Assembly: GCA_041691155.1 (NCBI GenBank)
Contig: JBEPVD010000002.1
Span: 66,109-130,108 of the forward strand
DNA: 64,000 nt
Direction: 5' to 3'
Source of the DNA: Candidatus Dormiibacterota bacterium
Lineage (GTDB): Bacteria > Chloroflexota > Dormibacteria > Aeolococcales > Aeolococcaceae
How positions within the stretch are numbered: the stretch's first letter is position 1; each line of letters opens with the position of its first letter. The notes under the pieces were generated by a model, which was given only the letters and a program-made list of their open reading frames with translations, was not told where the DNA came from and did no database searches. The position numbers were made by a program, and so were the translations under genes. This document shows, in pieces, positions 4,758-19,491 of this stretch.

Positions 4758-4782
4758 CCCCTGACGATATCGTCTGATCAAA

Positions 4783-4824: not shown

Positions 4825-5023
4825 GCGTTCGCCGGGTGCCGAGAAGAGCGCGCGAGACGCGCGTGGCAGCCATCTGCCGAAGAGCAGTGCTGGACAAACG
4901 ACAGTGCCACCAGCCCCATCAAAGATGAGCCCGCGCAATCTGCGGCCCAACACCGCATGGGCAACTGACATCGCGCTGGGCAGTGGCACGGGCTATCGAG
5001 GACGCGAGTGCTAGCCTTGATCC

Positions 5024-5227: not shown

Positions 5228-5344
5228 GCGATCGCCCTACCCCTCCGCGAAGCCCAGGTCGTCGACCGGGCCGGTGTCCCGAATGTGTTTCAAACGCGGC
5301 TAGGGTCGCCCCTGCTTCTGGGTGAACGCAAGGCGCGTTCCCGG

Positions 5345-5722: not shown

Positions 5723-5903
5723 GAAACACCTCCTCCACTGCTCGGTTGAACAACCTGGCCAGAGCAAACGCCAGCGGAAGGGACGGGATATACCGCCCAA
5801 CCTCGATCGAGTTGATGGTCTGTCGCGAGACGCTCACACGTTCCGCCAATTGCGCTTGGGACAAACTCGCGGCGCGACGCAGTTCGCGTATTCGGTTATC
5901 CAT
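5706..5903 (-). CDS. XRE-family (YozG-like) helix-turn-helix transcriptional regulator
   Basis: MDNRIRELRRAASLSQAQLAERVSVSRQTINSIEVGRYIPSLPLAFALARLF is a canonical short XRE HTH. ATG at 5901-5903 (a TTG at 5912 is also possible). Confidence 0.85.
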   Translation of the reverse strand: MDNRIRELRRAASLSQAQLAERVSVSRQTINSIEVGRYIPSLPLAFALARLFNRAVEEVFHDART

Positions 5904-5950
5904 GGATGTCAAGGTAACTTGTCATCGCTCGGATGTCAAGCGTGCTTGTC
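5904..5950 (-). promoter_or_regulatory. two copies of GGATGTCAAG-N4-CTTGTC directly upstream of the XRE gene start (operator candidates)
   Basis: Copy 1 at 5904-5923 and copy 2 at 5931-5950, with 27-bp periodicity. Copy 1 abuts the start codon. Confidence 0.35.
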
Positions 5951-6137
5951 TTTAGGCATTGCCGGGCGGCGCTCAGGGGCGTCCGCGTTCCGCTCGACTC
6001 TGGCGGGACTTGATAGTGCTACTATCATGAATCGTGAGTGTCCTAGAACCAACCAGCCAAGCCCACGGACTACGAACGACGGTCGCCGACGATCCTGATG
6101 GAGGCCGTCACGTCATCAGCCAGACAGCGAGCCGGCC

Positions 6138-7169
6138 ATGGTGAAGCGAATCACGTCGTCGCGCCCGGTTCAGGTCGTCATGGCCTATGGTCAGAGTCAG
6201 GGCGGCAATTACGCGGCGAGTCTCGCGTACAACGGCTTCCTCTCCATGTTCCCGCTCATCCTCGGCATGCTGTCGATCGTCGGATTTCTCATCACCGATC
6301 CGGCGACGCAGAAGACGATCTATGCCGACATCGTCTCGGTGTTCCCGGGTGACGCACACGCGCAAATTCTGCGCGCTCTCGTAAACGTCAAGCACAATGC
6401 GGGGCTTCTCGGGATTCTGGCGGTTCTCGGTTTGCTGTGGAGCGGCACGGGCTTGTTTGCATCCATGGAGTTCGCGCTGACCGAGATCTTCGGAACCAAG
6501 CAGCGAGACATGCTCCGGCAACGCCTGATGGGCATCATCATGATGCTGGTCTTCATCGCCGCGGTCCTCTTCGTTGTCGCGGCGAACAGCGCGCTCGCAG
6601 CGTCCGCAGGCGCAGGCATCCTCGGGACCGCTGCCGGTGCGATCGTGCTCGTCGGACTCATGATCGCCATCTACCGGTTCGTGCCCAATCGGACGTTTGC
6701 CCTCAAGGACATCTGGCCGGGAGCGGTGCTTGCCGGCGTGATGATTGAGCTGTTCTCGTTGCTCTTTCCCCTCTACGCGAAGGTTTCCAACGGGTTCGGG
6801 ACGTACGGCCAGCAGTTCGCACTCTTTTTCCTCCTCGCCACCTGGCTTGGATTTCTCTGCCAGTTCATTCTCCTCGGCGCCGTCTTCAACAAGATGCGTT
6901 TGGGCGTTCCCAACAAAGAAGGAATCGTGGCGTCACCTGCCGCAGCGAGCCGCGCGCACAAGGCTCCGGGTGACGCGATCGACGAGCAGAAGCGCCAACC
7001 GCACATGCGCGACCAGTCCGCCGGCCCGCAGAGCACAATCGCCGCGGGCGACTCCCGCCCCGGTGCATTCAAGGTCGGCATGGCGTTAGGTGCCTGTATC
7101 GGAGCCGCCACCATAGGAACGCTTGCGCTGCGTTTCCGTGCGTCCTCCGGCGCGACCGTGCGGCGATGA
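6138..7169 (+). CDS. YihY/BrkB family membrane protein
   Basis: N-terminal GGNYAASLAYNGFLSMFPLILG signature plus six or more hydrophobic segments. 343 aa. Confidence 0.85.
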   Translation: MVKRITSSRPVQVVMAYGQSQGGNYAASLAYNGFLSMFPLILGMLSIVGFLITDPATQKTIYADIVSVFPGDAHAQILRALVNVKHNAGLLGILAVLGLLWSGTGLFASMEFALTEIFGTKQRDMLRQRLMGIIMMLVFIAAVLFVVAANSALAASAGAGILGTAAGAIVLVGLMIAIYRFVPNRTFALKDIWPGAVLAGVMIELFSLLFPLYAKVSNGFGTYGQQFALFFLLATWLGFLCQFILLGAVFNKMRLGVPNKEGIVASPAAASRAHKAPGDAIDEQKRQPHMRDQSAGPQSTIAAGDSRPGAFKVGMALGACIGAATIGTLALRFRASSGATVRR

Positions 7170-7369
7170 CAACGCTGCCTGGCAAGCCCTTTCCGCTCGG
7201 CGCCACGCCGCTGGCAGAGGGTGTGAACTTTGCCCTAGCCTCCGAGGTCGCGGATGCGGTGGAGGTCCGTCTGTTCGATGGCGATGGGTCGGAAAGCCGC
7301 GTCGAAACTTCCGGAGCGAACCGCTCATGTCTTTCATGGTCATGGTTCCCTGGATATGCCTGCCATTGA
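7166..7369 (+). pseudogene. N-terminal remnant of a second GlgX/TreX-type debranching enzyme (CBM48 region only)
   Basis: GKPFPLGATPLAEGVNFALASEVADAVEVRLFDGDGSE aligns with the intact GlgX in this window ([34 protein letters not shown]). The ORF stops after 67 codons. An ATGA overlap joins it to the yihY stop. Confidence 0.6.
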
Positions 7370-7553
7370 CGCAATCGCGCTCCTGAAAGCTGACCATCGC
7401 AGGGTCGAAGACCTTTTCAAGAAATTCGAGAAGGTTGGTGAGCGTGCCCTGCGGCCCGATCGAACGCCCCATCGCGAGCGCTGCCAACGGCACCCGATAC
7501 CCCAAAGGGCGAGACGAGCACCCCGGCAGCGCGTCGTTAGGGCAGGCTTCTAG
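7356..7553 (+). pseudogene. N-terminal remnant of a hemerythrin (HHE) domain protein
   Basis: MPAIDAIALLKADHRRVEDLFKKFEKVGE matches the hemerythrin-domain N-terminus. The remaining ~35 codons are Arg/Pro-rich and carry no further HHE motifs. Confidence 0.5.
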
Positions 7554-7617
7554 AGGAAGCACGTTCTGGCGTCGGGGGAGGCCGCCGCAGCACTGTCGCA
7601 CCTGGCGAGTGCCGCGG

Positions 7618-8355
7618 TCAGTCGTCACCCGTGAACGGCTGCGGTATGCCTGCAATCACGCCGGTCGCGTAGCGCACGCGATCGGTGCCGGGCGCGTACA
7701 CCGTGACCGTGCCCGCCCCGAGGCAGTGCCACGTGCCCGACCGCCAAAGCGCGCAGGTCCGCTCATCGATGCCGATGAGCGCGGCCGCGGGAAGCGCCGC
7801 GCGTGCGGATGGGAACCACTTTTCGCCGAACGTGTCGTGATGAGGGAGCACCGCCGCATCCGGAACCACCGCGAGGCCGGGAGCGGAACGGCGCTCGGTG
7901 TGGCCGGGAAAGGCCTGACGTACCAGCGTCTGCGCGCATAGGGCCATTGCTCCCGCCGATGATCCCGCGAGCGGTGCTCCACTGCGCCATGCCGCGATCA
8001 TTGCGGTGCCCACAGGGGTCTCACGAAGCACCGATGCCACCAATCCGGGATCACCTCCCGCGATGTAGAAGAAGCCGGCGCCCACGACGGCATCGGCGAG
8101 CGCCTGGTCGGTCGCTTGCCGTTTGGTGTAGACCGAGAGCTCGGTCAACTCGAGGCCGAACTGTCGGAACCAGCGGCAAGCCTGCTGCACCACCATCTCC
8201 GGCCGGGACCTCGCCGCGGCGGTAGCGACGACATACGCCTGCCTCGCGGCGCGCGCCGCCGAAGCAAGGACCTCGTCCTGCGGCTCGTTGCCTGGATGGA
8301 ACTCATCGCCCCCGGTGAGTCCGAGTGGGCCCGCCTGGTGCAGGGTGCCGTCCAT
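7618..8355 (-). CDS. peptidase S51 / cyanophycinase-like (type 1 glutamine amidotransferase-like) protein
   Basis: GFFYIAGGDPGLV and the nucleophile motif PLAGSSAGAMAL. ATG at 8353-8355 is chosen inside the longer 7618..8646 ORF. Confidence 0.72.
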   Translation of the reverse strand: MDGTLHQAGPLGLTGGDEFHPGNEPQDEVLASAARAARQAYVVATAAARSRPEMVVQQACRWFRQFGLELTELSVYTKRQATDQALADAVVGAGFFYIAGGDPGLVASVLRETPVGTAMIAAWRSGAPLAGSSAGAMALCAQTLVRQAFPGHTERRSAPGLAVVPDAAVLPHHDTFGEKWFPSARAALPAAALIGIDERTCALWRSGTWHCLGAGTVTVYAPGTDRVRYATGVIAGIPQPFTGDD

Positions 8356-8536
8356 GAGGCGATCATGCCCAACCCAGACGAGCGACCGCCCCAGCTTTTC
8401 TAGGCGCTCCGCCCGCGCGCCAGAGTGCTCGAACCCTCCTACCTGTGCAAACGGTCTACGGAAAGTGCACAATTCCGGCCACTCGGGAACCGGCCATGGA
8501 TGCCGGAGCATTCCACGGGAAGCGGAGGTACGGGGT

Positions 8537-10141
8537 ATGCGGTCATCGAAAGGCAAACTCTTGTTTCTGGCGGTTCTGCCGCTAGCGACACTCGCTGGGG
8601 TCTCCGGGGGAGGCTCCGTGGCTAATGCATCGGCGGTGCACACCATCCTGAACTGTACGAAGGCCTCAACCTGTACCGAGGTGCACGACTCGGAGGCGGT
8701 CTTCGGCGAGGGGGTCTACGTCGGCCATGACGAGCCGTCGACGCTCTTTTACTCAAATCGCGCAGGTTCCGGAAACTCGAACCAGTGGCAGCTCAACCTG
8801 CCGAAGGATCCGTCGGCTTCGGCTCCGTTGACACCCGGCAAGGCGTACAACTTCCAGTTGCATCCCGCTTTCTGGTTCGGTATGGCGATGTGCGACACCC
8901 AGTCCTACCCGAACTTGGTGAGCACCTGCACCCCTGACAGCGACAAGAACATCGTTGATCCGGCCATCTCGCCCAAGCACCCGGGGACGGCGTTCATGGA
9001 GATGCAGTTCTACCCGCCCGGTTGGGCAGCCTGGCCTGCGGGGAACAGTTGTGACCCCACCAAGTGGTGTGCCGCGCTGAACATCGACAGCCTCTCGCAG
9101 AACCCGGTCACCGGGCAGAGCCAGAATGCGACCTGTGCGGCGCACGCCGGTCTCGAGTACGTCAACTTCGCGTTCATCACCCTCAGCGGGAAGCCCCAGC
9201 CGGGCTCGCCGCCTAACCCGGTGAACTCGACGATCAGCACCTTTACACCCAACGCGGCTGCCGACCTGTTCATGAACTCCGGCGACAAGCTGAGCGTTGA
9301 TGAGCACGACACTGCCCACGGGCTTCAGATCGTCATCAGGGACAAGACCACCGGGCAGACCGGGTCCATGACGAGTAGCGCTGCTAATGGCTTCGGCCAG
9401 GTGCAGTTCCGGCCCCACGGCAGCAGCTGCAACAACATCCCGTACGACTTCCACCCCATGTACAGCACGTCGTCTGAGAAGACGCGCGTTGTGTGGGCGG
9501 CACATTCGTACAACATCGCGTTCGCCGATGAGATCGGCCATTTCGACTACTGCAATGACCACGTCGTATCGGGCGGCGTCTGCACCACCACCGAGGGCAA
9601 CGGCATCACCAAAGAGGCTGCCGATGGCGATGACGGCGGGTGCTTCGACAAGACTCAATCGACGCTGGTGCGCGTGAGCGGATGCCTCGGGACCAACACC
9701 GGGTTTGACGGCGTGCCCTACACGCCGGTCTGGCCGGACGGCAACACCCGGCTGCACCCGACTAGCGTTCAGTTCTCCAGCCCGATGACCAATGGTTCCA
9801 ACTTCCAGCGCATGGCGTTTGAAGCGGACCTGCCGCGCATCGAGGACGCGACGGTGTGCGATCGGTTCACCGGCGCCGGCTGCACGCTGATTCCGACGAC
9901 CGACGACCTCGGCCCGGACGGAAATCCGGCGCCGGCGTTGTTCTACCCGTTCTTCAGCACCGCGAAGGTTGATGGTTCCTGCATGTGGCAGCTCGGCAAC
10001 CACATTCCGGGGAGCACCAATGACTTCGGCCAGAACGCTCAGTACGGGACGCTGTTGAACCTCACGTACACGACGACAGGAGGTGTCCCGACCACCCGGT
10101 ACAACGACTTCCGCAACATCCTTTCCAAGAACCCCTGTTAG
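8537..10141 (+). CDS. secreted hypothetical protein, Cys-rich, family not identified
   Basis: ATG 8537 has GGAGGT 8 nt upstream. Signal peptide KLLFLAVLPLATLAGVSGGGSVANA. Conserved-looking GHDEPS and FYPPGW blocks. 534 aa. Confidence 0.75.
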   Translation: MRSSKGKLLFLAVLPLATLAGVSGGGSVANASAVHTILNCTKASTCTEVHDSEAVFGEGVYVGHDEPSTLFYSNRAGSGNSNQWQLNLPKDPSASAPLTPGKAYNFQLHPAFWFGMAMCDTQSYPNLVSTCTPDSDKNIVDPAISPKHPGTAFMEMQFYPPGWAAWPAGNSCDPTKWCAALNIDSLSQNPVTGQSQNATCAAHAGLEYVNFAFITLSGKPQPGSPPNPVNSTISTFTPNAAADLFMNSGDKLSVDEHDTAHGLQIVIRDKTTGQTGSMTSSAANGFGQVQFRPHGSSCNNIPYDFHPMYSTSSEKTRVVWAAHSYNIAFADEIGHFDYCNDHVVSGGVCTTTEGNGITKEAADGDDGGCFDKTQSTLVRVSGCLGTNTGFDGVPYTPVWPDGNTRLHPTSVQFSSPMTNGSNFQRMAFEADLPRIEDATVCDRFTGAGCTLIPTTDDLGPDGNPAPALFYPFFSTAKVDGSCMWQLGNHIPGSTNDFGQNAQYGTLLNLTYTTTGGVPTTRYNDFRNILSKNPC

Positions 10142-10164
10142 GGGACTGATCCAAGCAGTGTCCG

Positions 10165-10192
10165 GAGGGCGGCCCAATGCTGGGCCGCCCTC
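10165..10192 (+). terminator. intrinsic terminator candidate
   Basis: gagggcggccca-atgc-tgggccgccctc: a perfect 12-bp stem with a 4-nt loop, 24 nt after the stop codon, followed by ttc. Confidence 0.6.
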
Positions 10193-10358
10193 TTCGGGCG
10201 CTGCCTACATCGTTTGGCCAAGTACGGTCCGGCTCTAGGTTTCAGCTCTTTTCAGTCTCCGAAGCACCGGTTTGCGGCCCCTGTCGACCGGGCGGGGATG
10301 CGGGAAATCGGGAGCATCGCCCTTCACTTCACCAACGCGGGCCAGCGAACAACCACCA

Positions 10359-10390
<32 letters not shown>

Positions 10391-10413
10391 TCCAACCGGG
10401 GCGCCAAACCGTG

Positions 10414-11661
10414 TTATCGCGGAGTGGTTTGGGAGGCCCAAGCCGTGGCGATGGCGTCGACCACAGCCAGGATGCGCTGGGTTCCGCCGTCGTCGCCCTT
10501 CTCGAAGTCATCGCCCGCTGTGGCCAGGGTGTTGGTGACGTGGGCCACGCACACGACGGCTCGTTGGCGTGAGGTGGCATACGCGTAGAGCGCGGCAGCC
10601 TCCATCTCGACCGCATGTACGCCGGCTCGGGTTGCTGCGGCGATGGCAGTTGCAGTCTCTCGGAAGGGCGCATCAGTGGTCCACGAGGCGCCGGTGAGCA
10701 CTGGCTCTCCGAGTCCGTCAAAGGCCCGGATGAGAAGTGCACTCAGCTGGGGGTGCAGATGCGACCACTCACTGGGTTGAAGGTAGTGAAGACTGGTGCC
10801 TTCGTCGCGCCAGGCCTTCTCGATGAGGATGAAATACGGCGGTTCACCCATCGGCAGAATGCGGCCAGCTGAGGTCACCGAAACCACGAGTTCGCATCCC
10901 GATGCGTGCAGCTCCTCAGCAACGAGCACCGCATAGGGTGCTCCGACAGCACAGGGCACAATCCCAATCTCACGAGCATCTCGATCGGTGATCCAGAGCT
11001 CTGAGTGGTAGCACGCCCAGCCCTGGTGACGCCGCGCGAGTCCGTCGGCCTTGAGGTGACGGACGACGTCGCCGTCGGGATCGAGGACGCACACGCTTGG
11101 CACCGGCGAATCGGGCAGTCGCCGCTGTCGACGGCCTTCACGCAAGAGGTTGTGCACCCGGAAGACGGAGGGCTCTTCGTATTGTTTTTGGCGTAGCAGC
11201 GGTGGCCCGTGATGACCGTTGTTGTGTGCGCCAGGATCCCGATCAGTGACCGGATTCGGCGGCCATGACACCACCGGCAATCCGGCCGCCGCCCACGCTT
11301 CGAACCCACCGATGACATCGCTCGCTTGTCGCAGCCCGATCCGCTGCAGCGTGGCCGCGACGAGGCTCGACGAGTAGCCTTGGTTGCAGATCGCAATTAC
11401 CTGTTGGTCCACCTGCGTTATCTCGGGCATGTGGTCGGGAGAGGTCGGATCGAGACGCCATTCGAGGACATTCCGGTCGACGACGATCGCCCCGGGAATC
11501 GTCCCATCGCGTTGACGCTGATCGACAGGCCGGGTGTCGATGAGCAGGGCTCCACGGCGCATACTCTCTGCCGCTTGAGGAGCGGTGAGCCGCGTGATTG
11601 TGCGCCGCGCTTCAGCAAGAACTTCGTCGATTGAGCTGGGCTCATGATCAATGGAGGGCAC
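10414..11661 (-). CDS. rhodanese domain fused to a PNP/UDP-family nucleoside phosphorylase domain
   Basis: N-terminal rhodanese (LIDTRP..., active-site loop AICNQGYSSS, GGFEAWAAAGLPV). C-terminal phosphorylase (VVSVTSAGRI, WRDEGTSLHY, VHAVEMEAAALYA). One uninterrupted frame. GTG 11659-11661 is chosen because it overlaps the upstream gene by 14 nt. Confidence 0.7.
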   Translation of the reverse strand: MPSIDHEPSSIDEVLAEARRTITRLTAPQAAESMRRGALLIDTRPVDQRQRDGTIPGAIVVDRNVLEWRLDPTSPDHMPEITQVDQQVIAICNQGYSSSLVAATLQRIGLRQASDVIGGFEAWAAAGLPVVSWPPNPVTDRDPGAHNNGHHGPPLLRQKQYEEPSVFRVHNLLREGRRQRRLPDSPVPSVCVLDPDGDVVRHLKADGLARRHQGWACYHSELWITDRDAREIGIVPCAVGAPYAVLVAEELHASGCELVVSVTSAGRILPMGEPPYFILIEKAWRDEGTSLHYLQPSEWSHLHPQLSALLIRAFDGLGEPVLTGASWTTDAPFRETATAIAAATRAGVHAVEMEAAALYAYATSRQRAVVCVAHVTNTLATAGDDFEKGDDGGTQRILAVVDAIATAWASQTTPR

Positions 11662-12286
11662 GCGCTGCCACCCACGTGAACGGTTGCGTCGTCCCGGCTG
11701 GCGTGACGTGATCCTCGCGCCGAACCGCCACGATCTCGAAGCTGCCCACGAGCAGCGAAGCAATGTCGTCTGCGGAATATCGCGCCACCGGCAAGCCGGA
11801 GCAGCGCTCAGGCCCGTCGGGCGCGAAGGTGCCGATGATGACGTGGCAGCCGGGGCACACGGCAGCGGTCAGGACTTCGATGTAGCGCTGCCGGTCCGCC
11901 ACGTTGACGAGGAAGTGGAAGACTGCTCGGTCGTGCCACAAGTGATAGCAATGCGCAGGTTGCCACGAGAGTATGTCTGCCTGAACCAACTGGGCTCCCT
12001 GAGCGCGTCCCAGCCGCTCCCGCGTCAGCGCCAGCGCAGCAGCCGAGACGTCGAGGACCGAGACATCGAGGAATCCGCGAGCGAGCAGGCGATCGACCAG
12101 CGATGAGGCCCCGCCGCCAACGTCGATCACCGCACCATCGCGCGCTACGGCGAGGGCTTCGATCAGTTCGAGGGGTACTGTCGGTTCCGGCTGATGCCAG
12201 CTCAATTCAGTCGGCGCACCACGACGGTAGGTCGCATCCCAGTGATCGCCTCGGCTCTCCGCATGAGCGGCGATTTGATTCGACAT
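11648..12286 (-). CDS. class I SAM-dependent methyltransferase
   Basis: Motif I VIDVGGGASSLVDRLLARG followed by DVSVLDVS. ATG at 12284-12286 (MSNQIAAH). Confidence 0.8.
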   Translation of the reverse strand: MSNQIAAHAESRGDHWDATYRRGAPTELSWHQPEPTVPLELIEALAVARDGAVIDVGGGASSLVDRLLARGFLDVSVLDVSAAALALTRERLGRAQGAQLVQADILSWQPAHCYHLWHDRAVFHFLVNVADRQRYIEVLTAAVCPGCHVIIGTFAPDGPERCSGLPVARYSADDIASLLVGSFEIVAVRREDHVTPAGTTQPFTWVAARALH

Positions 12287-12445
12287 CTCGCTAGTGTCGC
12301 ACTCGACCAAAAGGCATTGAGCATGGCGGACATGAAGCTCGCATCGCTGGGGTCTTTACGATGCATGCCGCGATGGCTCACCGTAGCTCCCGGCTGGGAC
12401 AGCTGCCCGCGGCCACCGACCCGCGGCGTCCGCGATGGCTGAGGT

Positions 12446-12763
12446 CTAGAAGCGGTCGCCGGGTATGGTTGCGGCTAGCGCCGCAGCATGGGGATGGTTG
12501 TGCTCCCCCGGTCCGTGGCCGTCACTGGAGCAGGGATGTGGTTGGTGTCGAGGACTTGCCCGGTCGGCCGTATCCGAGAGCTTTGCGCCGTCCTTCTCGG
12601 CGCGGAAGGCATCCTGGCACTGCGCTGATCAGAAGTAGTAGCGGACAACTCCGACCTGATCGGAGGCGGCGGCACTGCTCGGCGCGATCTCCATACCGCA
12701 CACCGGGTCGGTGACGAGGGCCAACAGCTCCGCATCTGCGGGCCCCGATCCCAGTTCGACCAC
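12446..12763 (-). CDS. YHS/TRASH-domain metal-binding protein interrupted by an in-frame TGA at 12629-12631 (selenocysteine candidate or nonsense pseudogene)
   Basis: The frame reads VTDPVCGMEIAPSSAAASDQVGVVRYYF-TGA-SAQCQDAFRAEKDG... and stays open for 60 more codons to TAG 12446-12448. This fits the pattern C-X22-[TGA]-X3-C. Candidate starts are GTG 12763 or TTG 12724. Confidence 0.5.
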
Positions 12764-12811
12764 GACGTCAGCCGCTGCCCTTGGCGCTGTGTGCCGCTCC
12801 CGAGTTGGTGG

Positions 12812-13015
12812 ATGATGGGCGGCGAGTTGCTGGTTGCAGCGCTTGTCATTGCCGGCATTGTGTTTGCGGTAATGCTTGGCTCCCATGCCCGGAGCGCGGT
12901 GTCGCCTGTACCCGGAATCAGCAATGCGCGTGCGATCCTCGAGGGGCGCTTGGCGCGCGGCGAAATCGACGAGCAACAGTTTCAACGGCGGTCGAACCTG
13001 TTGTCGTCGTCCTGA
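12812..13015 (+). CDS. SHOCT-domain membrane protein
   Basis: MMGGELLVAALVIAGIVFAVML is a TM segment, followed by the C-terminal SHOCT signature ARAILEGRLARGEIDEQQFQRR. GTG 12791 is an alternative start. Confidence 0.75.
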   Translation: MMGGELLVAALVIAGIVFAVMLGSHARSAVSPVPGISNARAILEGRLARGEIDEQQFQRRSNLLSSS

Positions 13016-13074
13016 TCGAGCAGATGTGACTTTCGGCTCTGGCGCCCTGATGCGGACAGCCGGATAGTTGAGCC

Positions 13075-13596
13075 ATGACCTACACAACGCCAGCGGTCCA
13101 AACCGCAACTCCGCCACGGCCGCATACCGGACGGCGGAATCCATGGCTCATGGGAGTCGGCCTGACGGTGATCGCATTGATCGCAGTCGGCGTCGGCGTC
13201 ACCGTCGTCCGCGGCAATGGCACTTCATCAACCGGTAACGCCGCTACCCCACGGTCGGCATCGACGCAGCTAGCGGACGTGCAACAGTCTTGTCAGCAGT
13301 GGTCCACGAGTGCGGCCTCACATCCCGGCATCGGCTCACCCAGCGGAGGGTCGTGCGCCGCCTTAGGCGAGTGGATGGGTCGGCAGTTGGCAAGCGGGCA
13401 CATGGACGGCGTCGCAATGTGGGGCAGCGCCGCAACGCTGCAGTCCACCTGTCAGCAGTGGATGGCCACGGGTTCCGGATCGACAGTCGCCGGGACTGGC
13501 GCGCAATCCTGGTGCGGCGAGATGGCCGCCTGGATGGCGCAACACGTCGGCAGCTGGCGTACGTGGATGGTGAACGGCACCATGATGGGCGGCTGA
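13075..13596 (+). CDS. membrane-anchored Cys/Met/Trp-rich protein with an internal duplication (CQQW...C..EWM)
   Basis: N-terminal TM segment (WLMGVGLTVIALIAVGVGVTVV). Two ~50-aa repeats, SCQQW...SCAALGEWMGRQL and TCQQW...SWCGEMAAWMAQHV. Ends in MMGG. Confidence 0.65.
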   Translation: MTYTTPAVQTATPPRPHTGRRNPWLMGVGLTVIALIAVGVGVTVVRGNGTSSTGNAATPRSASTQLADVQQSCQQWSTSAASHPGIGSPSGGSCAALGEWMGRQLASGHMDGVAMWGSAATLQSTCQQWMATGSGSTVAGTGAQSWCGEMAAWMAQHVGSWRTWMVNGTMMGG

Positions 13597-13606
13597 GTCG
13601 GCGACG

Positions 13607-14077
13607 TCAGCTTGTCGGTGACCTGACCGCGATCAGACGCGTGGCGCCCGATGCCAGCGGGAGCCTTGAGCACCCCGAGGCGCCGGCCCGGAATGCCGTT
13701 TCGTTCGGCTGGAGCGGGGTCGCCCACTCGGACCACAGTGGCAGCACCTGTGGGTTGGAACTCGCCGCTCGAGGGTCGTGGCGCACGATCAAGATCGATC
13801 CCGGGATCAACGGCAGATCCACGTCCCCCGGGGCTGGTGTGTACAGGGGCTCGGGCCGCGGCTGCAGGCGGAGAATCCGACCGTCGCCGCTGATGGTCAC
13901 GGTGCCGGCGAGGAGGCCGACACCGCCCGCAACGGGACCCCGGCAGCCTGCGCTCGTGCTCGTGGGGGCGGCGGATGGCGTGGCGTTGCACCCGGCCCCG
14001 GCCATCACCGTCGCGAACACTGCTGCATAACGGAAGGCGATCAGCACTATCGGTGATACGTCTGCTCGGCGCGCCAA
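13607..14077 (-). CDS. putative secreted/lipoprotein, hypothetical
   Basis: TTG start. The N-terminus MARRADVSPIVLIAFRYAAVFATVMAGAGC looks like a signal peptide with a Cys (non-canonical lipobox). It competes with two overlapping shadow ORFs. Confidence 0.45.
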   Translation of the reverse strand: MARRADVSPIVLIAFRYAAVFATVMAGAGCNATPSAAPTSTSAGCRGPVAGGVGLLAGTVTISGDGRILRLQPRPEPLYTPAPGDVDLPLIPGSILIVRHDPRAASSNPQVLPLWSEWATPLQPNETAFRAGASGCSRLPLASGATRLIAVRSPTS

Positions 14078-14141
14078 GTTCCGCGATGCACGCCGGCGTT
14101 GCCCACATCGTCGTTCGGCCGGGCTGTCAGAATCCTGCAGC

Positions 14142-14801
14142 GTGAGTGGCTGTTGCAGCCCGCGTGGCTATCGGCGCTTCTTCAGCGAGCAGAAGGCGAG
14201 GTCTGAAGGGAAGCGCTATCGCTCCAAGGGCCCCGACGCGATTGCAAAGCGCGTCGTCGAGCCTCTGCTCGAGCGCGGGGTGGAGGGCAGCACCGTCCTT
14301 GAGATTGGCGGGGGCATCGGAGCGGTCCAGCTCGAGTTGCTCCGGTCCGGGGCGAGCCGAGCCGTGAGCGTCGAATTGACGCCGACGTATGAGGACACTG
14401 CCCGCGGCCTGCTTGATGAGGCCGGCTTCGTCGATCGTGTTGAGCGCAGGGTCCTCGACTTCGTTGAAGCCGGCGACGATGTCGGGTCGGCCGAGATCGT
14501 CGTGATGAACCGCGTGGTTTGCTGCTACCCGGATATGCCGAGGTTGGTCGGTGCCGCCGCCGACCACACCGGAGGCATCCTCGTCATCAGCTTTCCGAGA
14601 AGCACCTGGTGGACGCGATGGGGCTTGGCGGCGGGCAACCTCCTACTCCGGGTAGCGCGGCGCGAGTTTCATGTTTTTGTTCACTCACCCGACGAAATAC
14701 GGCGGATCGCCGAGCTGCATGGTCTTCGATCCCTCGCGGTCCGGACCGGGGTTTTCTGGCAGGTCGGTAGCTGGGAGCGGCCGACAGAAGGTCTCCCTTG
14801 A
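14142..14801 (+). CDS. class I SAM-dependent methyltransferase with an N-terminal CC/basic extension
   Basis: Motif I VLEIGGGIGAVQLELLRSG. N-terminus MSGCCSPRGYRRFFSEQKARSEGKRYR. Confidence 0.8.
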   Translation: MSGCCSPRGYRRFFSEQKARSEGKRYRSKGPDAIAKRVVEPLLERGVEGSTVLEIGGGIGAVQLELLRSGASRAVSVELTPTYEDTARGLLDEAGFVDRVERRVLDFVEAGDDVGSAEIVVMNRVVCCYPDMPRLVGAAADHTGGILVISFPRSTWWTRWGLAAGNLLLRVARREFHVFVHSPDEIRRIAELHGLRSLAVRTGVFWQVGSWERPTEGLP

Positions 14802-15191
14802 CCCTTGGCTACGATCAACCCTTGTACCTCTTGGCCTTCGATCATCGGGGTCGTTTGAAACGGGGAGAGTCGCGGTCCGGGTTGGTAGAACCGTCAGTCG
14901 CGCGACCCAGGTGCAAGCTTGCGCAGGCGGGCCCGGAGGGATCTGAATGCTCTCCCTTTTCAGGCGCTTGAGGATCACCTCAGCATCATCATTGGACGTC
15001 TCACCAGCTTCGACCGCCTCGGCCAACTTCGTCGCGGCAGCTAGGAGCGACCCACCCCAGAAGCGGCGTGACCGGAGCTTGGTCCACTCGATGGCTTTAC
15101 CGGCGCGCGCAGCTCACCCGAAACGGCCAACGAGGCCAACTCGGTAGCTCACCCGGGGGCAGGGAACTCTTAGAGTCCGCACGGCGTAGTT

Positions 15192-15761
15192 ATGGGTATG
15201 AAGCGATGGGGCATACCCCTGTTGACGCTCGCGGGGGTCGCCGTCATCGGCACGCCGATTGCCGGCTCGGCCTCTTGCGCAGCCCCGATTCCTCTCGCTG
15301 TCGCAATAGCCGCCGCGCCGACCGTTTTTGTCGGCACCGTCGAAAGCCTCAGCAATGGGGGACGCGTTGCCGCTGTCCAGGTGGACGATGTTTGGCGGGG
15401 AAGCTCGCTCCCGACGATGGTGCAGGTTGTTGGGACTCCAGATCTGAACGCAGCTGCGACCTCGGTCGATCGCACCTACCAGTCCGGCACGCAGTACCTT
15501 TTTGTCCCCACGAGCGGCGGCCCCGACAGGTTCCAGGACAATACCTGCACGGCGACCCAACCGTTCGCGGCCTCCCTGAGCGGGCTCCGTCCGGGCAACG
15601 CCCCAGGCCCCCCCGCGGCAACGCACCCCCCGCTTTCCGAAGACCCTGGACAGGGCTGGCTCATCGCGATACTGGCGCTGATCGTCTTCCTCATTCTCGG
15701 TGCGGTCGTTCTGGCGGTCTGGTATCGCCGGAGGGGTTTTCGCGCGCATCCCGCCGCCTAG
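15192..15761 (+). CDS. secreted, C-terminally membrane-anchored hypothetical protein
   Basis: Signal peptide MGMKRWGIPLLTLAGVAVIGTPIAGSAS followed by Cys. Pro-rich linker. C-terminal TM segment WLIAILALIVFLILGAVVLAVWY plus RRRG. Confidence 0.65.
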   Translation: MGMKRWGIPLLTLAGVAVIGTPIAGSASCAAPIPLAVAIAAAPTVFVGTVESLSNGGRVAAVQVDDVWRGSSLPTMVQVVGTPDLNAAATSVDRTYQSGTQYLFVPTSGGPDRFQDNTCTATQPFAASLSGLRPGNAPGPPAATHPPLSEDPGQGWLIAILALIVFLILGAVVLAVWYRRRGFRAHPAA

Positions 15762-16268
15762 CGCTGAGCGCTGCCGGTGCAACGGATTGAGCGGCTCATC
15801 TCCGGGGTCTGGTCGCCAGCCGTCTCGCGGGTTCACCATTGCGGTCGGCGATCCCGCCTGAGAAAGTTGGCCGTGAAGGCACCAGGGCGCCGGCGCAGCG
15901 CCGCGACCACCGCCCCGGCCAAGACGCATCGGGAGCTGCGCGATATCCAGAGCAGCCAAGGCGAGTTGCGCCTGAGGCGCAGGTGCTGCGCCTAGAGACC
16001 TCCCGTTTCTACCTACTCCGCTTCATCCCCGTCGTCGGAGGCGCTGGAGCCGATCGCCGGAGCCAGCGACGCCGGTTGTTGGAATGATCGCCGACCCGGT
16101 GCCCGTGGGCGCTGCTGCTCGCCCCTTCTGGCTCGGCCGGGTGGCTCATCGCGGGCATGCCCGCTCGCCCCATTTGGCGGAGGAATTGATGCAGTCCTGG
16201 GCGTCCAGCAGAGGACAGTGACGTACGCTAGCGAACGCGCCGCGCCCTGTGAGTCGAATGCGAAAGAG

Positions 16269-16352
16269 TGCCGAGAAAGGGAATCGAACCCTTACGCCCT
16301 TGCGAGCACAGCGCCCTGAACGCTGCGTGTCTACCAGTTCCACCACCTCGGC
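16269..16352 (-). tRNA. tRNA-Leu (anticodon CAG), class II with a long variable arm; no encoded CCA
   Basis: The reverse complement reads GCCGAGGTGGTGGAACTGGTAGACACGCAGCGTTCAGGGCGCTGTGCTCGCAAGGGCGTAAGGGTTCGATTCCCTTTCTCGGCA. Acceptor stem GCCGAGG/TCTCGGC, anticodon stem CAGCG/CGCTG with loop TTCAGGG, T-arm AAGGG-TTCGATT-CCCTT. Confidence 0.93.
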
Positions 16353-16403
16353 CGGTGCCCGCTGATGGTACCAGCGCCCGCCGGGACTGACGACGCTCGC
16401 GCT

Positions 16404-17987
16404 CTAGTGCAGGACCCAGGAGCTGATGTCGTTATAGCGGGCTGACTCATCGCCGATTGCGGGGATCGGCGCAGTCGGCATTGGCGATCGGAAGACGAAC
16501 GACACCCGCGGCGTGTACAGAAAGACCGCCGGCGCATCATCGGCAAGCAAGGCCGTGACCCGTGCCGCCGCGTCCGCTCGAACGGAGCGGCCCGGGGACC
16601 GGGCGAGCATGTCGAGCGCCGCGTCAAGGAAGGGGTCGGCTGCGCCTGCCGAGACGTTGTAGCCATGCGGTGGCGTGGCCGTCGATCGCCAGAAGGCGCT
16701 CACGTCAGGATCCGGCGTGGGGCTCCAGGCGTCGATCGCCAGCTGGAAGGCCCCAGTCTCCAGCGTCCCGATCAGGAAGCTCTCCGGCGCCACCGTCTTG
16801 ATGGTCACCCGCACGCCGATCGCGTCCAGCTGGTTCGCGACCTCGGTCGCGACCACCGGGAGCGGGTTCAGCGACGGCACCGCCAGGGTGAACGCGAGCT
16901 GGGTCGAACCGCGATGCCGCACGCCGTCCGAGCCCAGAGCCCACCCGTCGCCCTCGAGCACCGTCTCGGCAACCGTCGGTGAGATCGCCGCGATGCTGCG
17001 AGCTTCGACCCACGGCAAGCCGTCGGAGAACGGACCGGTCTGCACCACGCCGCTGCGCCCGTCGAGGGCACCCGCCACCACCGCCGCCCGGTTCACGGCG
17101 ATGCCGATCGCATGCCGCACCACCGAGTCCGTGAGCCCCGGGACGTGCTCGTTGAACAGCAGGTCCACGAAGTCGGGCGTGGTCATACTCTCGGCCTGTG
17201 CGCCCTTGACCGCGAGTAGGGCCGCGAGCTCTTGCGGGGTGGTCGCCAGCACCGCCTGGACATTCCCTTGCGCGAATGCTGCCGCGGCGTCTTTGAAGGT
17301 GAGAAACAGCCGGAGCTCGTAGCTCTTGATGTTCGGCCGATTCGCGGCGTGAGGATTCGGCTGCAGGACCACGGAAAGGAGGGCCGTCGAGCCGACTTCG
17401 TACGACCCCGAGGTGGGGAGGGGAACGGTGGGATTCTTCGCCGCCGCGCGCAGGTCCGAGGGACTCATCGCACCGAGCGGCAGGATTGGCAGTTCGGTCA
17501 GTGTGGCGGCGAACGAAGCCCGAGGCGTCGCGAGCTTGAACGTGATGACCGGTCCCGCCACAGTCATCTTCACTCCCTTCAGCCCGGCAGCGAGTGTCGC
17601 ATCACCCGCCTGCGGCGACAGCGCGAACTGGAGGGTGGCCAGGACGTCCTGGGACGTGATGGGCGCCCCGTTCGACCACTCGGGGCCGGAAGCCAGCGTG
17701 ACGGTGTAGGTCAAGCCGTCTGGCGTCACCGCGTATGACGACGCGAGGTCCGTCGTGGGATACCCGGTCACGTCCAACCTGAGCAGCGAGCGGTACAGGA
17801 GGTGCCCGACATCGACAACCGCGGGATCCGACGTATCGATCAGCGGATTCAATGACAGCGGCCGCTCGTCGACGACCAGGCCTTCCGTGAACTGGGGTCC
17901 GCCGATCAGGCCGAAGTGGATCGAGAGCGCGAACCCGAGAGCCCCTACCCCGAGGAGGCCGAGGACGGTGCCGGCCAGGACCTCAAT
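16404..17987 (-). CDS. ABC transporter substrate-binding protein, family 5 (peptide/nickel type), N-terminally anchored; start codon unresolved
   Basis: SBP_bac_5-like blocks (DLASSYAVTPDGLTYTVTLASGPEWSNGAPITSQDV). Hydrophobic anchor VLAGTVLGLLGVGALGFALSI. No ATG/GTG/TTG lies between the secG stop and the anchor, so the 5' end is set provisionally at ATT 17985-17987. Confidence 0.7.
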   Translation of the reverse strand: MEVLAGTVLGLLGVGALGFALSIHFGLIGGPQFTEGLVVDERPLSLNPLIDTSDPAVVDVGHLLYRSLLRLDVTGYPTTDLASSYAVTPDGLTYTVTLASGPEWSNGAPITSQDVLATLQFALSPQAGDATLAAGLKGVKMTVAGPVITFKLATPRASFAATLTELPILPLGAMSPSDLRAAAKNPTVPLPTSGSYEVGSTALLSVVLQPNPHAANRPNIKSYELRLFLTFKDAAAAFAQGNVQAVLATTPQELAALLAVKGAQAESMTTPDFVDLLFNEHVPGLTDSVVRHAIGIAVNRAAVVAGALDGRSGVVQTGPFSDGLPWVEARSIAAISPTVAETVLEGDGWALGSDGVRHRGSTQLAFTLAVPSLNPLPVVATEVANQLDAIGVRVTIKTVAPESFLIGTLETGAFQLAIDAWSPTPDPDVSAFWRSTATPPHGYNVSAGAADPFLDAALDMLARSPGRSVRADAAARVTALLADDAPAVFLYTPRVSFVFRSPMPTAPIPAIGDESARYNDISSWVLH

Positions 17988-18010
17988 GGGTCGATGGCGG
18001 CGGAGCCACC

Positions 18011-18244
18011 TTACGTTGTGACGTAGGTTGCGAGGATCGAGACGATGATGAAGAGCGCGATCATCGCTGCGGAGAACCGCAGCAGGCTGGCCTCCAGGCC
18101 GCGCCGGCGCCGGTACCCGCCGCCCGAATCTCCTCCACCACCGATGGTACCGCCGAGGCCGGTGGCCTTCGGGGTCTGGAGGAGGATGCCAAGGACCGCG
18201 AGTACCCCGATGATCACCTGGGCCACGGCGAGAGCCGTCTTCAC
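18011..18244 (-). CDS. secG: preprotein translocase subunit SecG
   Basis: 77 aa. GTG start with AAGGAGG 8 nt upstream. VKTALAVAQVIIGVLAVLGILLQ...GLGGTIGGGGDSGGG...FSAAMIALFIIVSILATY (two TM segments plus a Gly-rich loop). Confidence 0.88.
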   Translation of the reverse strand: MKTALAVAQVIIGVLAVLGILLQTPKATGLGGTIGGGGDSGGGYRRRRGLEASLLRFSAAMIALFIIVSILATYVTT

Positions 18245-18367
18245 GCAACAACGCCTCCTTGACAACGCACGTCGCGAGTATAGGGGGATCGGCGCGATCT
18301 GCTCCCGCTCCGCCGTCCCACAACTGCTCTGGGACAATACGCTGATCTGTGGTAGCGTGTCTGCGAA

Positions 18368-19420
18368 ATGTCACATTGGTATGGATCGACGCGCCTTCGA
18401 GTGGCCATCGCCGTGGCGTTCGCGCTGCTCGCGGGCTTCGCGGCAGTGCACGCCCTCGCTGCCCCTCCCCCGTCGCTGGCGCGACTGCTCGGCCCCGCTC
18501 CGATGGTCAGCGTCGAGGACGATCAGATCACGCTCCTGCGCAGCGGGCCGGCCACCTTCGCGCGCCTCGTATCGCTGATCACCGGCGCGCACACGAGCGT
18601 CCACGTCGAGGTCTACGAGTTCAACCAGCAGGGCCTCGCCACTGCGCTCATCGACGCGCACTCGCGAGGTGTTGCGGTCACGGTCATCCACGATCGCTCG
18701 GAGTCGAGCAGCACCGCAACCGCATCGCGACTCCGCGCTCGCGGTATCGACGTCGTCGACTATCCGATACGATCGAAGATGATCGACCATGTGAAGTTGT
18801 TGGTTGTCGACGCGCACGTTGCGGTCGTCGGTGGCATCAACTGGGGCATCCGTTCGCCTGCGAATCACGACTATGACGCGGAGATACGCGGTCCGGCAGT
18901 GCGCAATCTCGAGCGAGTCTTCCTCCGCGACCTGGTCACCTGTGGGCGCCCGTCCTCAATCCCTGATCCCGTTGCCGACGCAGCGATCACTGTCGCCGCG
19001 ACACTTCCCGGCGCCGAGATTCGGCCGCTCGTGATGCAGATCATCGACCGCGCCGTGCACACGCTCGACCTCGAGTTGTTCGTGCTGACGGACACCGGCG
19101 TCGTGCATGCACTCGCTGCGGCCACCGAGCGAGGAGTGAACGTACATGTCCTCCTCGATCCCTCGCAGCCGTCGAGCAAACCGGCGTACGCGGCCCTCGC
19201 GGTCGACGATGTCAACGTACGCTGGTATCGCGGCGGCGGCGAACTCCTCCATGCGAAGGCGATCGTCGCCGACGCGCGCTCCGTCCTCTTCGGGAGCGCC
19301 AACTGGTCGGGAGGTGGCTTCGCCCGCAATCACGAGCTGGACATCGACCTGCCCTCAGCTCCCGTGGTGGCATTCCAAATGCTCGATCAGATGACCCTGG
19401 ATTGGGTGGCCAGCTCCTGA
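18368..19420 (+). CDS. phospholipase D family protein (two HKD motifs), secreted
   Basis: HKD motifs DHVKLLVVDAHVAVVGGINW and LLHAKAIVADARSVLFGSANWS. N-terminal signal LRVAIAVAFALLAGFAAVHALA. Confidence 0.85.
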   Translation: MSHWYGSTRLRVAIAVAFALLAGFAAVHALAAPPPSLARLLGPAPMVSVEDDQITLLRSGPATFARLVSLITGAHTSVHVEVYEFNQQGLATALIDAHSRGVAVTVIHDRSESSSTATASRLRARGIDVVDYPIRSKMIDHVKLLVVDAHVAVVGGINWGIRSPANHDYDAEIRGPAVRNLERVFLRDLVTCGRPSSIPDPVADAAITVAATLPGAEIRPLVMQIIDRAVHTLDLELFVLTDTGVVHALAAATERGVNVHVLLDPSQPSSKPAYAALAVDDVNVRWYRGGGELLHAKAIVADARSVLFGSANWSGGGFARNHELDIDLPSAPVVAFQMLDQMTLDWVASS

Positions 19421-19426
19421 GTCCAT

Positions 19427-19455
19427 TTGACAAACGACCGGTCTCGATATATCGT
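19427..19455 (+). promoter_or_regulatory. sigma-70-like promoter candidate for the PadR gene, with a palindrome over the -10
   Basis: TTGACA (19427-19432), a 17-bp spacer, then TATCGT (19450-19455). The palindrome CGATATATCG spans the -10. Confidence 0.35.
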
Positions 19456-19491
19456 TCGTGACAGGAATCAACCGCCTTGGAGCGAACCACG

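What the first reader, a model, noticed from the sequence alone, without database searches (positions are those of the whole stretch)
12446..12763. In-frame TGA sits exactly on a metal-ligand cysteine of a YHS/TRASH motif: selenocysteine candidate or very recent nonsense mutation
On the minus strand the frame reads ...LVTDPVCGMEIAPSSAAASDQVGVVRYYF-TGA-SAQCQDAFRAEKDGAKL... The YHS/TRASH consensus is DPVCGM...YYFCSxxCxxxF (C-X19-22-C-X3-C). Here the spacing is C-X22-[TGA 12629-12631]-X3-C, so the stop codon replaces the second ligand Cys. The frame then stays open for 60 more codons, up to TAG 12446-12448. The motif after the TGA is intact (QCQDAF), and the tail is His-rich (GHGPGEHNHPH). An imperfect stem-loop can be drawn 4-44 nt after the TGA: GCGC ... 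CCUUC[CGCGCCGA]GAAGG ... GCGC. That is the position where bacterial SECIS elements lie, but I cannot score it. Sec/Cys interchange at redox or metal-binding positions is how bacterial selenoproteins usually differ from their Cys homologues. I do not know of a described Sec-containing YHS/TRASH protein. The neighbours fit a metal or chalcogen theme: SHOCT and a Cys/Met/Trp-rich protein lie divergent to it, and a SAM methyltransferase and a rhodanese fusion lie downstream on the same strand.
Basis: partly seen in the sequence, partly recalled or inferred. Interest (0 to 1): 0.7.

Follow-up and report, generated by a model that had tools for sequence, protein, structure and literature searches.

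The report
Stop codon on a metal-binding cysteine
A small copper-type metal-binding (YHS) gene in a soil Dormibacteria genome has TGA exactly where a metal-ligand cysteine should be; this may encode selenocysteine, a substitution already described in other YHS proteins, or it may be a plain knockout mutation, and the data available cannot decide.

Summary
On the minus strand, DPVCGM-X19-YYF-TGA(12629-12631)-SAQC reads as a YHS/TRASH domain whose second ligand Cys codon is TGA. An independent Logan assembly of SRR27874556 shows the same base.

For selenocysteine (Sec):
- The TGA sits on a ligand Cys.
- A 6-bp hairpin (12585-12603, -10 kcal/mol) meets all four published bacterial SECIS constraints. 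Only 4.8% of TGA triplets in the window do as well, and ten Cys-type YHS genes reach -2.3 at best.
- TGA at this same Cys recurs in six other YHS lineages. One of them (L020/L023/L025) shows purifying selection downstream and a compensated hairpin.

Against Sec:
- There is no orthologue anywhere, so conservation cannot be tested.
- No Sec machinery could be examined.
- The gene lies in a non-syntenic variable region beside tRNA-Leu.
- The last 40 codons have poor codon bias.
- 37% of true stops in the window are followed by at least 60 open codons.
- A random nonsense mutation would hit a ligand Cys 12.5% of the time.

This protein does not match that model.

Verdict: a credible but unproven Sec candidate (about 0.45), against a nonsense allele (about 0.4). 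Interest is modest.

The parts
12446..12763 (-). Interrupted YHS/TRASH gene. The start is GTG 12763 or, more likely, TTG 12724, which gives MALVTDPVCGM like the homologue's MAQVKDPVCGM. The in-frame TGA is at 12629-12631 and the final TAG at 12446-12448.
   Evidence: PF04945, 31.4 bits with Cys substituted; alignment with P0002 spans the TGA. The in-frame coding score is +31.9 for the 44 codons before the TGA and -0.1 for the 60 after it.
12629..12631 (-). In-frame TGA at the second metal-ligand Cys of the C-X22-C-X3-C motif. It is either a Sec codon or a TGC-to-TGA nonsense change.
   Evidence: The base is identical in the Logan assembly L001. This codon accounts for 1 of the 24 single-base routes to a stop in the ORF.
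12698..12709 (-). The DPVC codons of the DPVCGM motif, containing the first ligand Cys (TGC 12700-12698).
12617..12619 (-). Third ligand Cys codon (TGC), three codons after the TGA.
12585..12603 (-). Candidate SECIS mini-hairpin GCGCCG-AGAAGGA-CGGCGC. It has a 6-bp stem and a 7-nt loop with G at loop position 2. The loop starts 31 nt after the UGA. Energy is -10.0 kcal/mol.
   Evidence: z = -3.2 for the 19-mer; 0 of 200 shuffles fold as well. Window background: 11% of 1689 TGA triplets have a qualifying hairpin at -7.5 kcal/mol or better, and 4.8% at -10 or better.
12592..12609 (-). Alternative, mutually exclusive hairpin CCUUC-[CGCGCCGA]-GAAGG. It is weak.
   Evidence: -5.2 kcal/mol; 24 of 200 shuffles fold as well.
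11648..12286 (-). Class I SAM methyltransferase (212 aa, P0007), downstream on the same strand. It is not functionally tied to the YHS gene.
   Evidence: Orthologue loci L009, L010 and L012 have no YHS gene next to it.
10414..11562 (-). Rhodanese-PNP_UDP_1 fusion (382 aa).
16268..16352 (-). tRNA-Leu(CAG). Collinearity with six related Dormibacteria contigs ends exactly at its 3' end, so the YHS gene lies in a lineage-specific variable region.

Best explanation
The TGA at 12629-12631 is a genuine selenocysteine codon. The gene would then encode a small cytoplasmic YHS/TRASH metal-binding protein of about 92-105 aa, probably handling Cu(I). Its middle ligand would be a selenolate instead of a thiolate (C-X22-U-X3-C).

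Decoding would work as in other bacteria. SelB carrying Sec-tRNA(Sec) would be recruited by the hairpin GCGCCG-AGAAGGA-CGGCGC, 25-43 nt downstream of the UGA.

Shown here:
- the TGA position;
- the intact domain on both sides of it;
- the hairpin and its rarity in the window;
- the fact that this site is a translated TGA in another YHS family.

Inferred, not shown:
- that this organism (Candidatus Dormibacterota) has selA, selB, selD and tRNA-Sec;
- that the hairpin binds SelB;
- the metal specificity, which rests only on the Cys homologue P0002 lying next to a Csp copper-storage gene.
For: 1. The TGA replaces a ligand Cys of a Pfam-recognisable YHS domain.
2. The first 20 codons after the TGA keep gene-like GC3 (0.80) and the conserved SAQCxxxF motif.
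3. The hairpin meets all four bSECIS constraints quoted in PMC13188914 section 5: a 3-9 nt loop, a stem of at least 4 bp, G in the first two loop positions, 16-37 nt spacing, and an energy of -7.5 kcal/mol or lower. Only 4.8% of the window's TGA triplets do as well. Ten Cys-type YHS genes in the held loci reach -2.3 kcal/mol at best.
4. A pattern scan for TGA at this Cys found 1 in-frame case in 185,579 species genomes and 8 in-frame contigs in metagenomes.
5. In the L020/L025/L023 family the TGA is kept between orthologues that differ at 32 of 57 downstream codons (17 of them synonymous). That split of 25 identical, 17 synonymous and 15 non-synonymous codons gives dN/dS of about 0.3. Their hairpin CGCGUUC-CGUGC-GAACGCG keeps pairing through a G-C to G-U change.
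6. YHS selenoproteins are an accepted family (PMC1976440, PMC2398784, PMC13188914).
7. Two assemblers agree on the base.
Against: - No selA, selB, selD or tRNA-Sec lies in the 64 kb window. The rest of the genome could not be reached.
- I found no report of Sec use in Dormibacterota.
- There is no orthologue. The exhaustive search of 1.84 billion representatives gave 86 hits; self apart, the best-scoring ones are 44-56% identical over about 30 aa, all eight hits whose sequences I read carry Cys where the site is present, and by coordinates none of the 86 ends at the YYF position. Conservation of the TGA or the hairpin therefore cannot be tested.
- The hairpin loop reads AGA, not the usual G[G/U]. 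The 81-nt fold is at background (z = +0.18).
- Codons 21-60 after the TGA have GC3 of 0.55 and 0.70, with rare codons such as ATA, CTA and CGA. Only 2.5% of 60-codon windows in the window's genes have GC3 as low as this tail's 0.68.
- The gene sits in a variable region next to tRNA-Leu.
- Most other TGA-YHS cases (L006, L016/L024, L019, L021, L022) have no qualifying hairpin. By my own rough, unmeasured estimate of nonsense rates they could be ordinary nonsense alleles.
Confidence: 0.45

Rival explanations
1. It is an ordinary nonsense allele. A single C-to-A transversion turned the TGC ligand codon into TGA, so translation stops after YYF and the gene is a recent pseudogene or a strain variant. 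The hairpin is a chance feature of 65% GC DNA.
For: - TGC to TGA is one step. 3 of the 24 one-step routes to a stop in this ORF (12.5%) fall on a ligand Cys.
- 11% of TGA triplets in the window have a hairpin that passes the bSECIS constraints.
- An open frame after a stop is common here (37%).
- The gene lies in a non-syntenic variable region at a tRNA hotspot, where decaying genes accumulate.
- The tail has poor codon bias.
- NCBI annotated the ORF as ending at the TGA (P0001).
- Singleton TGA cases at this codon in CopA-type ATPases (L006, L019, L021, L022) lack SECIS-like hairpins.
- There is no evidence of Sec use in this phylum.
Against: - The joint chance of landing on a ligand Cys and having a hairpin of -10 kcal/mol or better is about 0.6% under this model.
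- The YHS domain shows no second lesion. Codon bias is equally good just before the TGA and in the 20 codons just after it (GC3 0.80 in both), so any inactivation would have to be very recent.
- The same site is a real recoded TGA in another YHS family.
Confidence: 0.4
2. It is a relic of a selenoprotein gene. A Sec-type YHS gene with its SECIS was acquired horizontally into the tRNA-Leu-adjacent variable region of a host that lacks, or has lost, Sec decoding. The TGA and hairpin are then genuine Sec features, but the gene is now truncated and decaying.
For: - The location is in a lineage-specific region that ends exactly at the tRNA-Leu 3' end. Relatives carry an integrase or other cargo at that spot.
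- GC is slightly lower to the left of 12 kb (0.63-0.64 against 0.66-0.68).
- The tail has atypical codon usage.
- The SECIS-like hairpin is present.
Against: - No integrase and no att repeat were found in the window.
- The closest homologue (P0002) is a Cys form.
- The window protein is only 26-29% identical to the supported Sec-YHS family.
- The N-terminal half has host-like codon usage (+31.9).
Confidence: 0.1
3. It is a sequencing or assembly error, or a minority allele fixed in the consensus. The true base would be C or T, giving TGC or TGT.
For: The source is a metagenome-assembled genome, and no read pileup is available.
Against: Two different assemblies (the NCBI contig of 130,471 nt and Logan contig L001) agree over 4033 nt without a single difference. 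A substitution error at good coverage is uncommon.
Confidence: 0.05

Closest known systems
YHS domain-containing selenoproteins (NCBIfam NF041384 'YHS_seleno_dom'). First predicted in the Olavius algarvensis delta-1 symbiont by Zhang & Gladyshev 2007 (PMC1976440); also listed in the GOS survey (PMC2398784) and in reviews (PMC9312934, PMC13188914).
   Same: A YHS domain with an in-frame TGA opposite a Cys in homologues, and a stem-loop directly downstream of the TGA.
   Different: - The window protein gives no NF041384 hit at E <= 0.1; the model's cut-off is 70 bits.
- The review gives the motif of the known family as GxU. Here the context is YYF-U-SAQC. I could not establish whether the Sec column is the same.
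- The known members come from anaerobic marine Desulfobacterota symbionts. This one comes from a soil Dormibacteria MAG.
Metagenomic YHS(TGA) proteins L020/L025/L023 (JGI Ga0187892/Ga0187893), found here.
   Same: - TGA at the identical ligand position (YYF-U-SxSC).
- The same C-x-D-A-F-R-A stretch after it.
- A stable hairpin whose loop starts 24 nt (L020 family) or 31 nt (window) after the UGA, with G at loop position 2.
   Different: - Those are secreted proteins of about 350 aa with a signal peptide and a C-terminal CTKCH motif. They lie in a Cus-like efflux cluster with cytochrome c, OEP and CusB/HlyD genes.
- They have orthologue support.
- The window protein is small, has no signal peptide, is only 26-29% identical and has no orthologue.
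Cys-type stand-alone YHS proteins, e.g. P0002 (soil metagenomes), which lies next to the copper-storage gene Csp.
   Same: - It is the best homologue (46% identity over 67 aa).
- It has the same size class and the same N-terminus shape (MAxVxDPVCGM).
- It shares FCSAQC and a TADRA tail motif.
   Different: P0002 and its cluster mates have TGC at the site and no downstream hairpin (best -2.3 kcal/mol). Their tail keeps GC3 of 0.76-0.78.
Sec-containing cation-transporting P-type ATPase (E1-E2 family, UxxC; ABB15669.1), listed in PMC2398784 and PMC13188914.
   Same: Sec proposed as a metal ligand in a heavy-metal handling protein.
   Different: That Sec lies in a UxxC motif of an ATPase, not in a YHS C-X22-U-X3-C site. 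The CopA-type cases with TGA inside a YHS domain seen here (L006, L019, L021, L022) are unverified singletons.

Membership tests
YHS/TRASH domain (Pfam PF04945) | Profile match above the gathering score | tested here: met
   31.4 bits against a cut-off of 30.3 with Cys in place of the TGA; residues 18-57 match profile positions 1-39 of 47. The margin is small.
YHS/TRASH domain (Pfam PF04945) | Ligand motif C-X19-22-C-X3-C with DPVCGM and YxFC | tested here: met
   DPVCGM, then X22, then the TGA, then X3 and C. The middle ligand codon is TGA rather than TGY.
Bacterial selenoprotein gene | In-frame UGA aligned with Cys in homologues | tested here: met
   P0002 and the eight other homologues whose sequences were read have Cys at this column wherever the site is present.
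Bacterial selenoprotein gene | bSECIS hairpin: 3-9 nt loop, upper stem of at least 4 bp, G in loop positions 1-2, 16-37 nt from the UGA, energy of -7.5 kcal/mol or lower | tested here: met
   GCGCCG-AGAAGGA-CGGCGC, spacing 31 nt, -10.0 kcal/mol. Specificity is low: 11% of TGA triplets in the window pass and 4.8% reach -10. The loop lacks the usual G[G/U].
Bacterial selenoprotein gene | UGA and SECIS conserved in orthologues, with purifying selection downstream | tested here: inconclusive
   No orthologue exists in the collections searched, and there is no synteny in relatives.
Bacterial selenoprotein gene | The genome encodes selA, selB, selD and tRNA-Sec | not testable with these tools
   None lies in the 64 kb window.
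NCBIfam NF041384 YHS_seleno_dom | Profile score of at least 70 bits | tested here: not met
   No hit at E <= 0.1 for the window protein. Related TGA-type proteins and P0002 reach only 14-19 bits.
NCBIfam NF041384 YHS_seleno_dom | Sec in a GxU context | tested here: not met
   The context here is Y-F-U. The motif is taken from Table 1 of PMC13188914. Column equivalence could not be checked.

The most novel reading that the evidence does not exclude
Dormibacterota, an uncultured and mostly aerobic soil phylum with no reported selenoproteome, decodes UGA as Sec. It uses Sec as a selenolate metal ligand in a new, NF041384-unrelated subfamily of small YHS copper-binding proteins. More broadly, the middle ligand of the YHS C-X22-C-X3-C site would be a recurrent Cys-to-Sec switch point across unrelated YHS architectures: stand-alone proteins, Cus-associated periplasmic proteins and CopA N-terminal domains.
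Probability: 0.3. Interest if true: 0.6.

Novelty: new member of a known kind. Interest (0 to 1): 0.35.

Why it matters
If the TGA is decoded, three things follow:
- It would be the first sign of selenocysteine use in Dormibacterota.
- It would be another case of Sec serving as a metal ligand rather than a redox catalyst.
- Together with the metagenomic L020 family, it would show that the middle ligand of the YHS site is a repeated Cys/Sec switch point.

It would also mean that annotation pipelines truncate such genes, as NCBI did here. If it is a nonsense allele, it is just one of the handful of broken accessory genes any genome carries. In either case the concept of a YHS selenoprotein is already published, so the gain is incremental.

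Tried and rejected
1. Rfam. There was no match at gathering scores for the whole window. At E <= 10 in 12300-12900 there was only noise.
2. Whole-region fold.
3. Orthologues through the downstream methyltransferase. Homologues 66-69% identical (L009, L010, L012-L015) have the methyltransferase, and L009 and L010 also the rhodanese, but no YHS gene in any frame.
4. Orthologues through the isocitrate-dehydrogenase-family gene. Six collinear Dormibacteria contigs lose collinearity at tRNA-Leu, 3.5 kb before the YHS gene.
5. Word-based protein search with the read-through protein. It returned only the gene itself and P0002.
6. Exhaustive HMMER search with the 44-aa N-terminal fragment. No close relative appeared, and no hit is truncated at YYF.
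7. Lookup of the NCBI product P0001. No contig is on record, so I obtained no assembly accession and no access to the rest of the genome.
8. att repeat of the tRNA-Leu 3' end, and an integrase, in the window. Neither was found.
9. UGA reassignment (genetic codes 4 or 25). Rejected, because TGA ends 18 of 28 confident genes.
10. Terminator or promoter explanation for the hairpin. Nothing relevant was found.
11. Literature on Sec in Dormibacterota. I found nothing. The supplement of the 2007 paper, which would show the Sec column of the known family, is not held.
12. A control scan for TGA at the first or third Cys, to measure the background nonsense rate.

Full report
**The observation**

On the minus strand the frame that starts at GTG 12763 reads VVELGSGPADAELLALVTDPVCGMEIAPSSAAASDQVGVVRYYF, then TGA (12631-12629), then SAQCQDAFRAEKDG... 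It ends at TAG 12448-12446, 60 codons after the TGA. A start at TTG 12724 is more likely, because it gives MALVTDPVCGM like the homologue's MAQVKDPVCGM.

With Cys in place of the TGA the protein passes Pfam YHS (PF04945) at 31.4 bits against a cut-off of 30.3. The spacing is C-X22-[TGA]-X3-C. The stop therefore sits on the middle ligand of the YHS/TRASH site.

NCBI's annotation ends the ORF at the TGA (P0001). A Logan assembly of run SRR27874556 gives a 4033-nt contig identical to window 10361-14393, TGA included. A one-assembler artefact is therefore unlikely, although both assemblies probably use the same reads.

**Host and location**

The isocitrate/isopropylmalate-dehydrogenase-family protein at 23993-25099 is 83-94% identical to the 120 listed metagenomic proteins. 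Most of the few that carry an organism name are named Candidatus Dormibacteraeota or Dormibacteria.

Six such contigs (L028-L033) are collinear with window 34271-16268 at 74-83% nucleotide identity. Collinearity stops exactly at the 3' end of tRNA-Leu(CAG), 16268-16352. Beyond that point each relative carries different genes, including a phage-type integrase in L029.

The YHS gene therefore lies in a lineage-specific variable region at a tRNA hotspot. I found no integrase or att repeat in the window itself.

The window holds ordinary chromosomal genes. It has no selA, selB or selD, and its only tRNA is tRNA-Leu. TGA is the usual stop codon (18 of 28 confident genes), so codon reassignment is excluded.

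**Features that do not discriminate**

- The open frame after the TGA means nothing here. 37% of 35 real stops in the window are followed by at least 60 open codons.
- Rfam finds nothing.
- The neighbours do not form a functional theme. The methyltransferases and the rhodanese-PNP fusion are generic. In relatives the methyltransferase-rhodanese pair occurs without any YHS gene.

**Evidence pointing to Sec**

I coded the published bSECIS constraints from PMC13188914 section 5: a loop of 3-9 nt, a stem of at least 4 bp, G in loop positions 1-2, 16-37 nt from the UGA, and an energy of -7.5 kcal/mol or lower.

The site has GCGCCG-AGAAGGA-CGGCGC at 12603-12585, with spacing 31 nt and energy -10.0 kcal/mol. 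Of 1689 TGA triplets in the window, 11% have a qualifying hairpin and 4.8% have one at -10 or better. Ten Cys-type YHS genes in the loci I hold reach only -2.3.

A random nonsense change in this ORF would hit one of the three ligand Cys codons with probability 3/24. The joint chance of that position and such a hairpin is about 0.6%.

**Is TGA at this Cys seen elsewhere?**

I scanned for GACCCNGTNTGYGGNATG-N54-75-TTYTGA-N9-TGY.

- In one genome for each of 185,579 species there were 7 matches. Only one is in frame: L006, an alphaproteobacterial chromosome whose CopA-type ATPase has the TGA in its second YHS domain.
- In metagenomes there were 10 matches, 8 of them in frame. L016 and L024 are a small stand-alone YHS protein. 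L019, L021 and L022 are CopA-type ATPases. L020, L025 and L023 are a secreted YHS protein of about 350 aa that ends in CTKCH and lies beside cytochrome c, OEP and CusB/HlyD genes.

The last family is convincing. L023 and L020 both keep the TGA. In the 57 codons downstream they show 25 identical, 17 synonymous and 15 non-synonymous codons, a dN/dS of about 0.3. Their hairpin CGCGUUC-CGUGC-GAACGCG (spacing 24 nt, G at loop position 2) keeps pairing through a G-C to G-U change. So this ligand position is a real recoding site in at least one YHS family.

The other cases are singletons or near-identical pairs without a qualifying hairpin. They are only 45-58% identical to one another.

**Evidence against Sec, or missing**

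- The window gene has no orthologue. The word-based search found only the gene itself and P0002 (46% identity, Cys).
- The exhaustive search of 1.84 billion representatives with the N-terminal fragment gave 86 hits. Apart from the gene itself, the best-scoring ones are 44-56% identical over about 30 aa. All eight hits whose sequences I read carry Cys where the site is present, and by coordinates none of the 86 ends at YYF. Conservation of the TGA and of the hairpin cannot be tested.
- Codon bias is gene-like before the TGA (score +31.9, GC3 0.80) and in the 20 codons after it (GC3 0.80). It drops in the last 40 codons (GC3 0.55 and 0.70, with ATA, CTA and CGA codons). Only 2.5% of 60-codon windows in the window's genes have GC3 as low as this tail's 0.68, and the tail of P0002 keeps 0.76-0.78. 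Because the drop starts 20 codons after the TGA rather than at it, I read it as a property of the tail, not as decay caused by the stop. It still weakens the case for a fully functional product.
- The hairpin loop reads AGA rather than the usual G[G/U].
- I found no report of Sec use in Dormibacterota.

**Comparison with what is known**

YHS-domain selenoproteins were predicted in 2007 in the Olavius delta-1 symbiont: five genes, each with a SECIS-like stem-loop (PMC1976440). They recur in the GOS survey (PMC2398784) and in reviews. The family now has NCBIfam model NF041384 with the motif given as GxU (PMC13188914).

The window protein does not match NF041384 at all. The L016 and L020 proteins and P0002 reach only 14-19 bits against a cut-off of 70. 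If the window gene is real, it is a member of the known kind 'YHS selenoprotein' but lies outside the curated subfamily.

The closest Cys relative, P0002, lies beside a Csp copper-storage gene and a BlaI/BlaR-like pair in soil contigs. That is the only basis for suggesting a copper role.

**Verdict**

The evidence does not separate a decoded Sec codon from a recent TGC-to-TGA nonsense allele. My estimates are:

| Explanation | Confidence |
|---|---|
| Genuine, currently decoded Sec codon | about 0.45 |
| Plain nonsense allele | about 0.40 |
| Undecoded relic of an acquired Sec gene | about 0.10 |
| Sequencing or assembly error | about 0.05 |

The decisive data are the Sec machinery in the rest of this MAG and the read pileup. 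Both lie outside what could be reached here.

Noticed in passing
window 16268-34271 compared with L028-L033; break at tRNA-Leu 16268-16352: The window is collinear (74-83% nt identity) with six Dormibacteria metagenome contigs down to the exact 3' end of tRNA-Leu(CAG). Beyond it every relative carries different cargo: an integrase in L029, HTH_17 in L028, Peptidase_M78 plus HTH in L032, an ice-binding protein in L033. Window 1-16267 therefore looks like a tRNA-associated variable region, although it has no integrase or att repeat.
   Followed up: partly
L020:1595-1687, L025:1794-1886, L023:161-253 (JGI Ga0187892/Ga0187893): A secreted protein of about 350 aa: signal peptide, YHS domain with TGA at the middle ligand, then about 290 aa ending in a CTKCH motif. 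It lies next to cytochrome c, OEP and CusB/HlyD genes. The TGA is conserved between orthologues that have diverged at about half of their codons, dN/dS downstream is about 0.3, and the hairpin is compensated. This is a well supported Sec-YHS protein that does not match NF041384 (14 bits).
   Followed up: partly
L006:6427-6519 (OZ244951.1, Alphaproteobacteria MAG chromosome); L022:431-523; L019:1116-1208; L021:9575-9664: Four CopA-type P-type ATPases, 45-58% identical to one another, carry TGA at the same YHS ligand Cys, and the frame continues for hundreds of codons. L006 and L022 share the layout YHS(Cys)-YHS(TGA)-ATPase. None has a hairpin that passes my strict bSECIS test. They could be Sec proteins or nonsense alleles.
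   Followed up: partly
L016:483-575 and L024:1722-1814 (JGI Ga0105246 and Ga0068864): A 60-aa stand-alone YHS gene with TGA at the middle Cys occurs in two samples. The copies differ by two amino acids upstream of the TGA. The downstream hairpin AUCGA-AAU-UCGAU has no G in its loop.
   Followed up: no
window 13075-13596 (+): A 173-aa membrane-anchored protein rich in Cys, Met and Trp, with repeated SCQQW/TCQQW motifs. It is encoded on the opposite strand from the YHS gene, in the divergent cluster upstream of it. It has no Pfam or NCBIfam match. The adjacent 'SHOCT' match is below its cut-off (21.1 against 27 bits).
   Followed up: partly
L026:2486-3205: The closest Cys-type homologue (P0002) sits directly after a Csp copper-storage gene (PF03860) and near a BlaI/BlaR-like regulator pair in farmland and forest soil contigs.
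   Followed up: no
window 29889-34331 (+): The GlgX-like gene's TGA is followed by 765 open codons in the same frame. This is an artefact: the long ORF 32067-34331 overlaps a DUF2252 gene on the other strand, and only its C-terminal half is the Na+/H+ exchanger. It shows how little an open frame means at 65% GC.
   Followed up: yes
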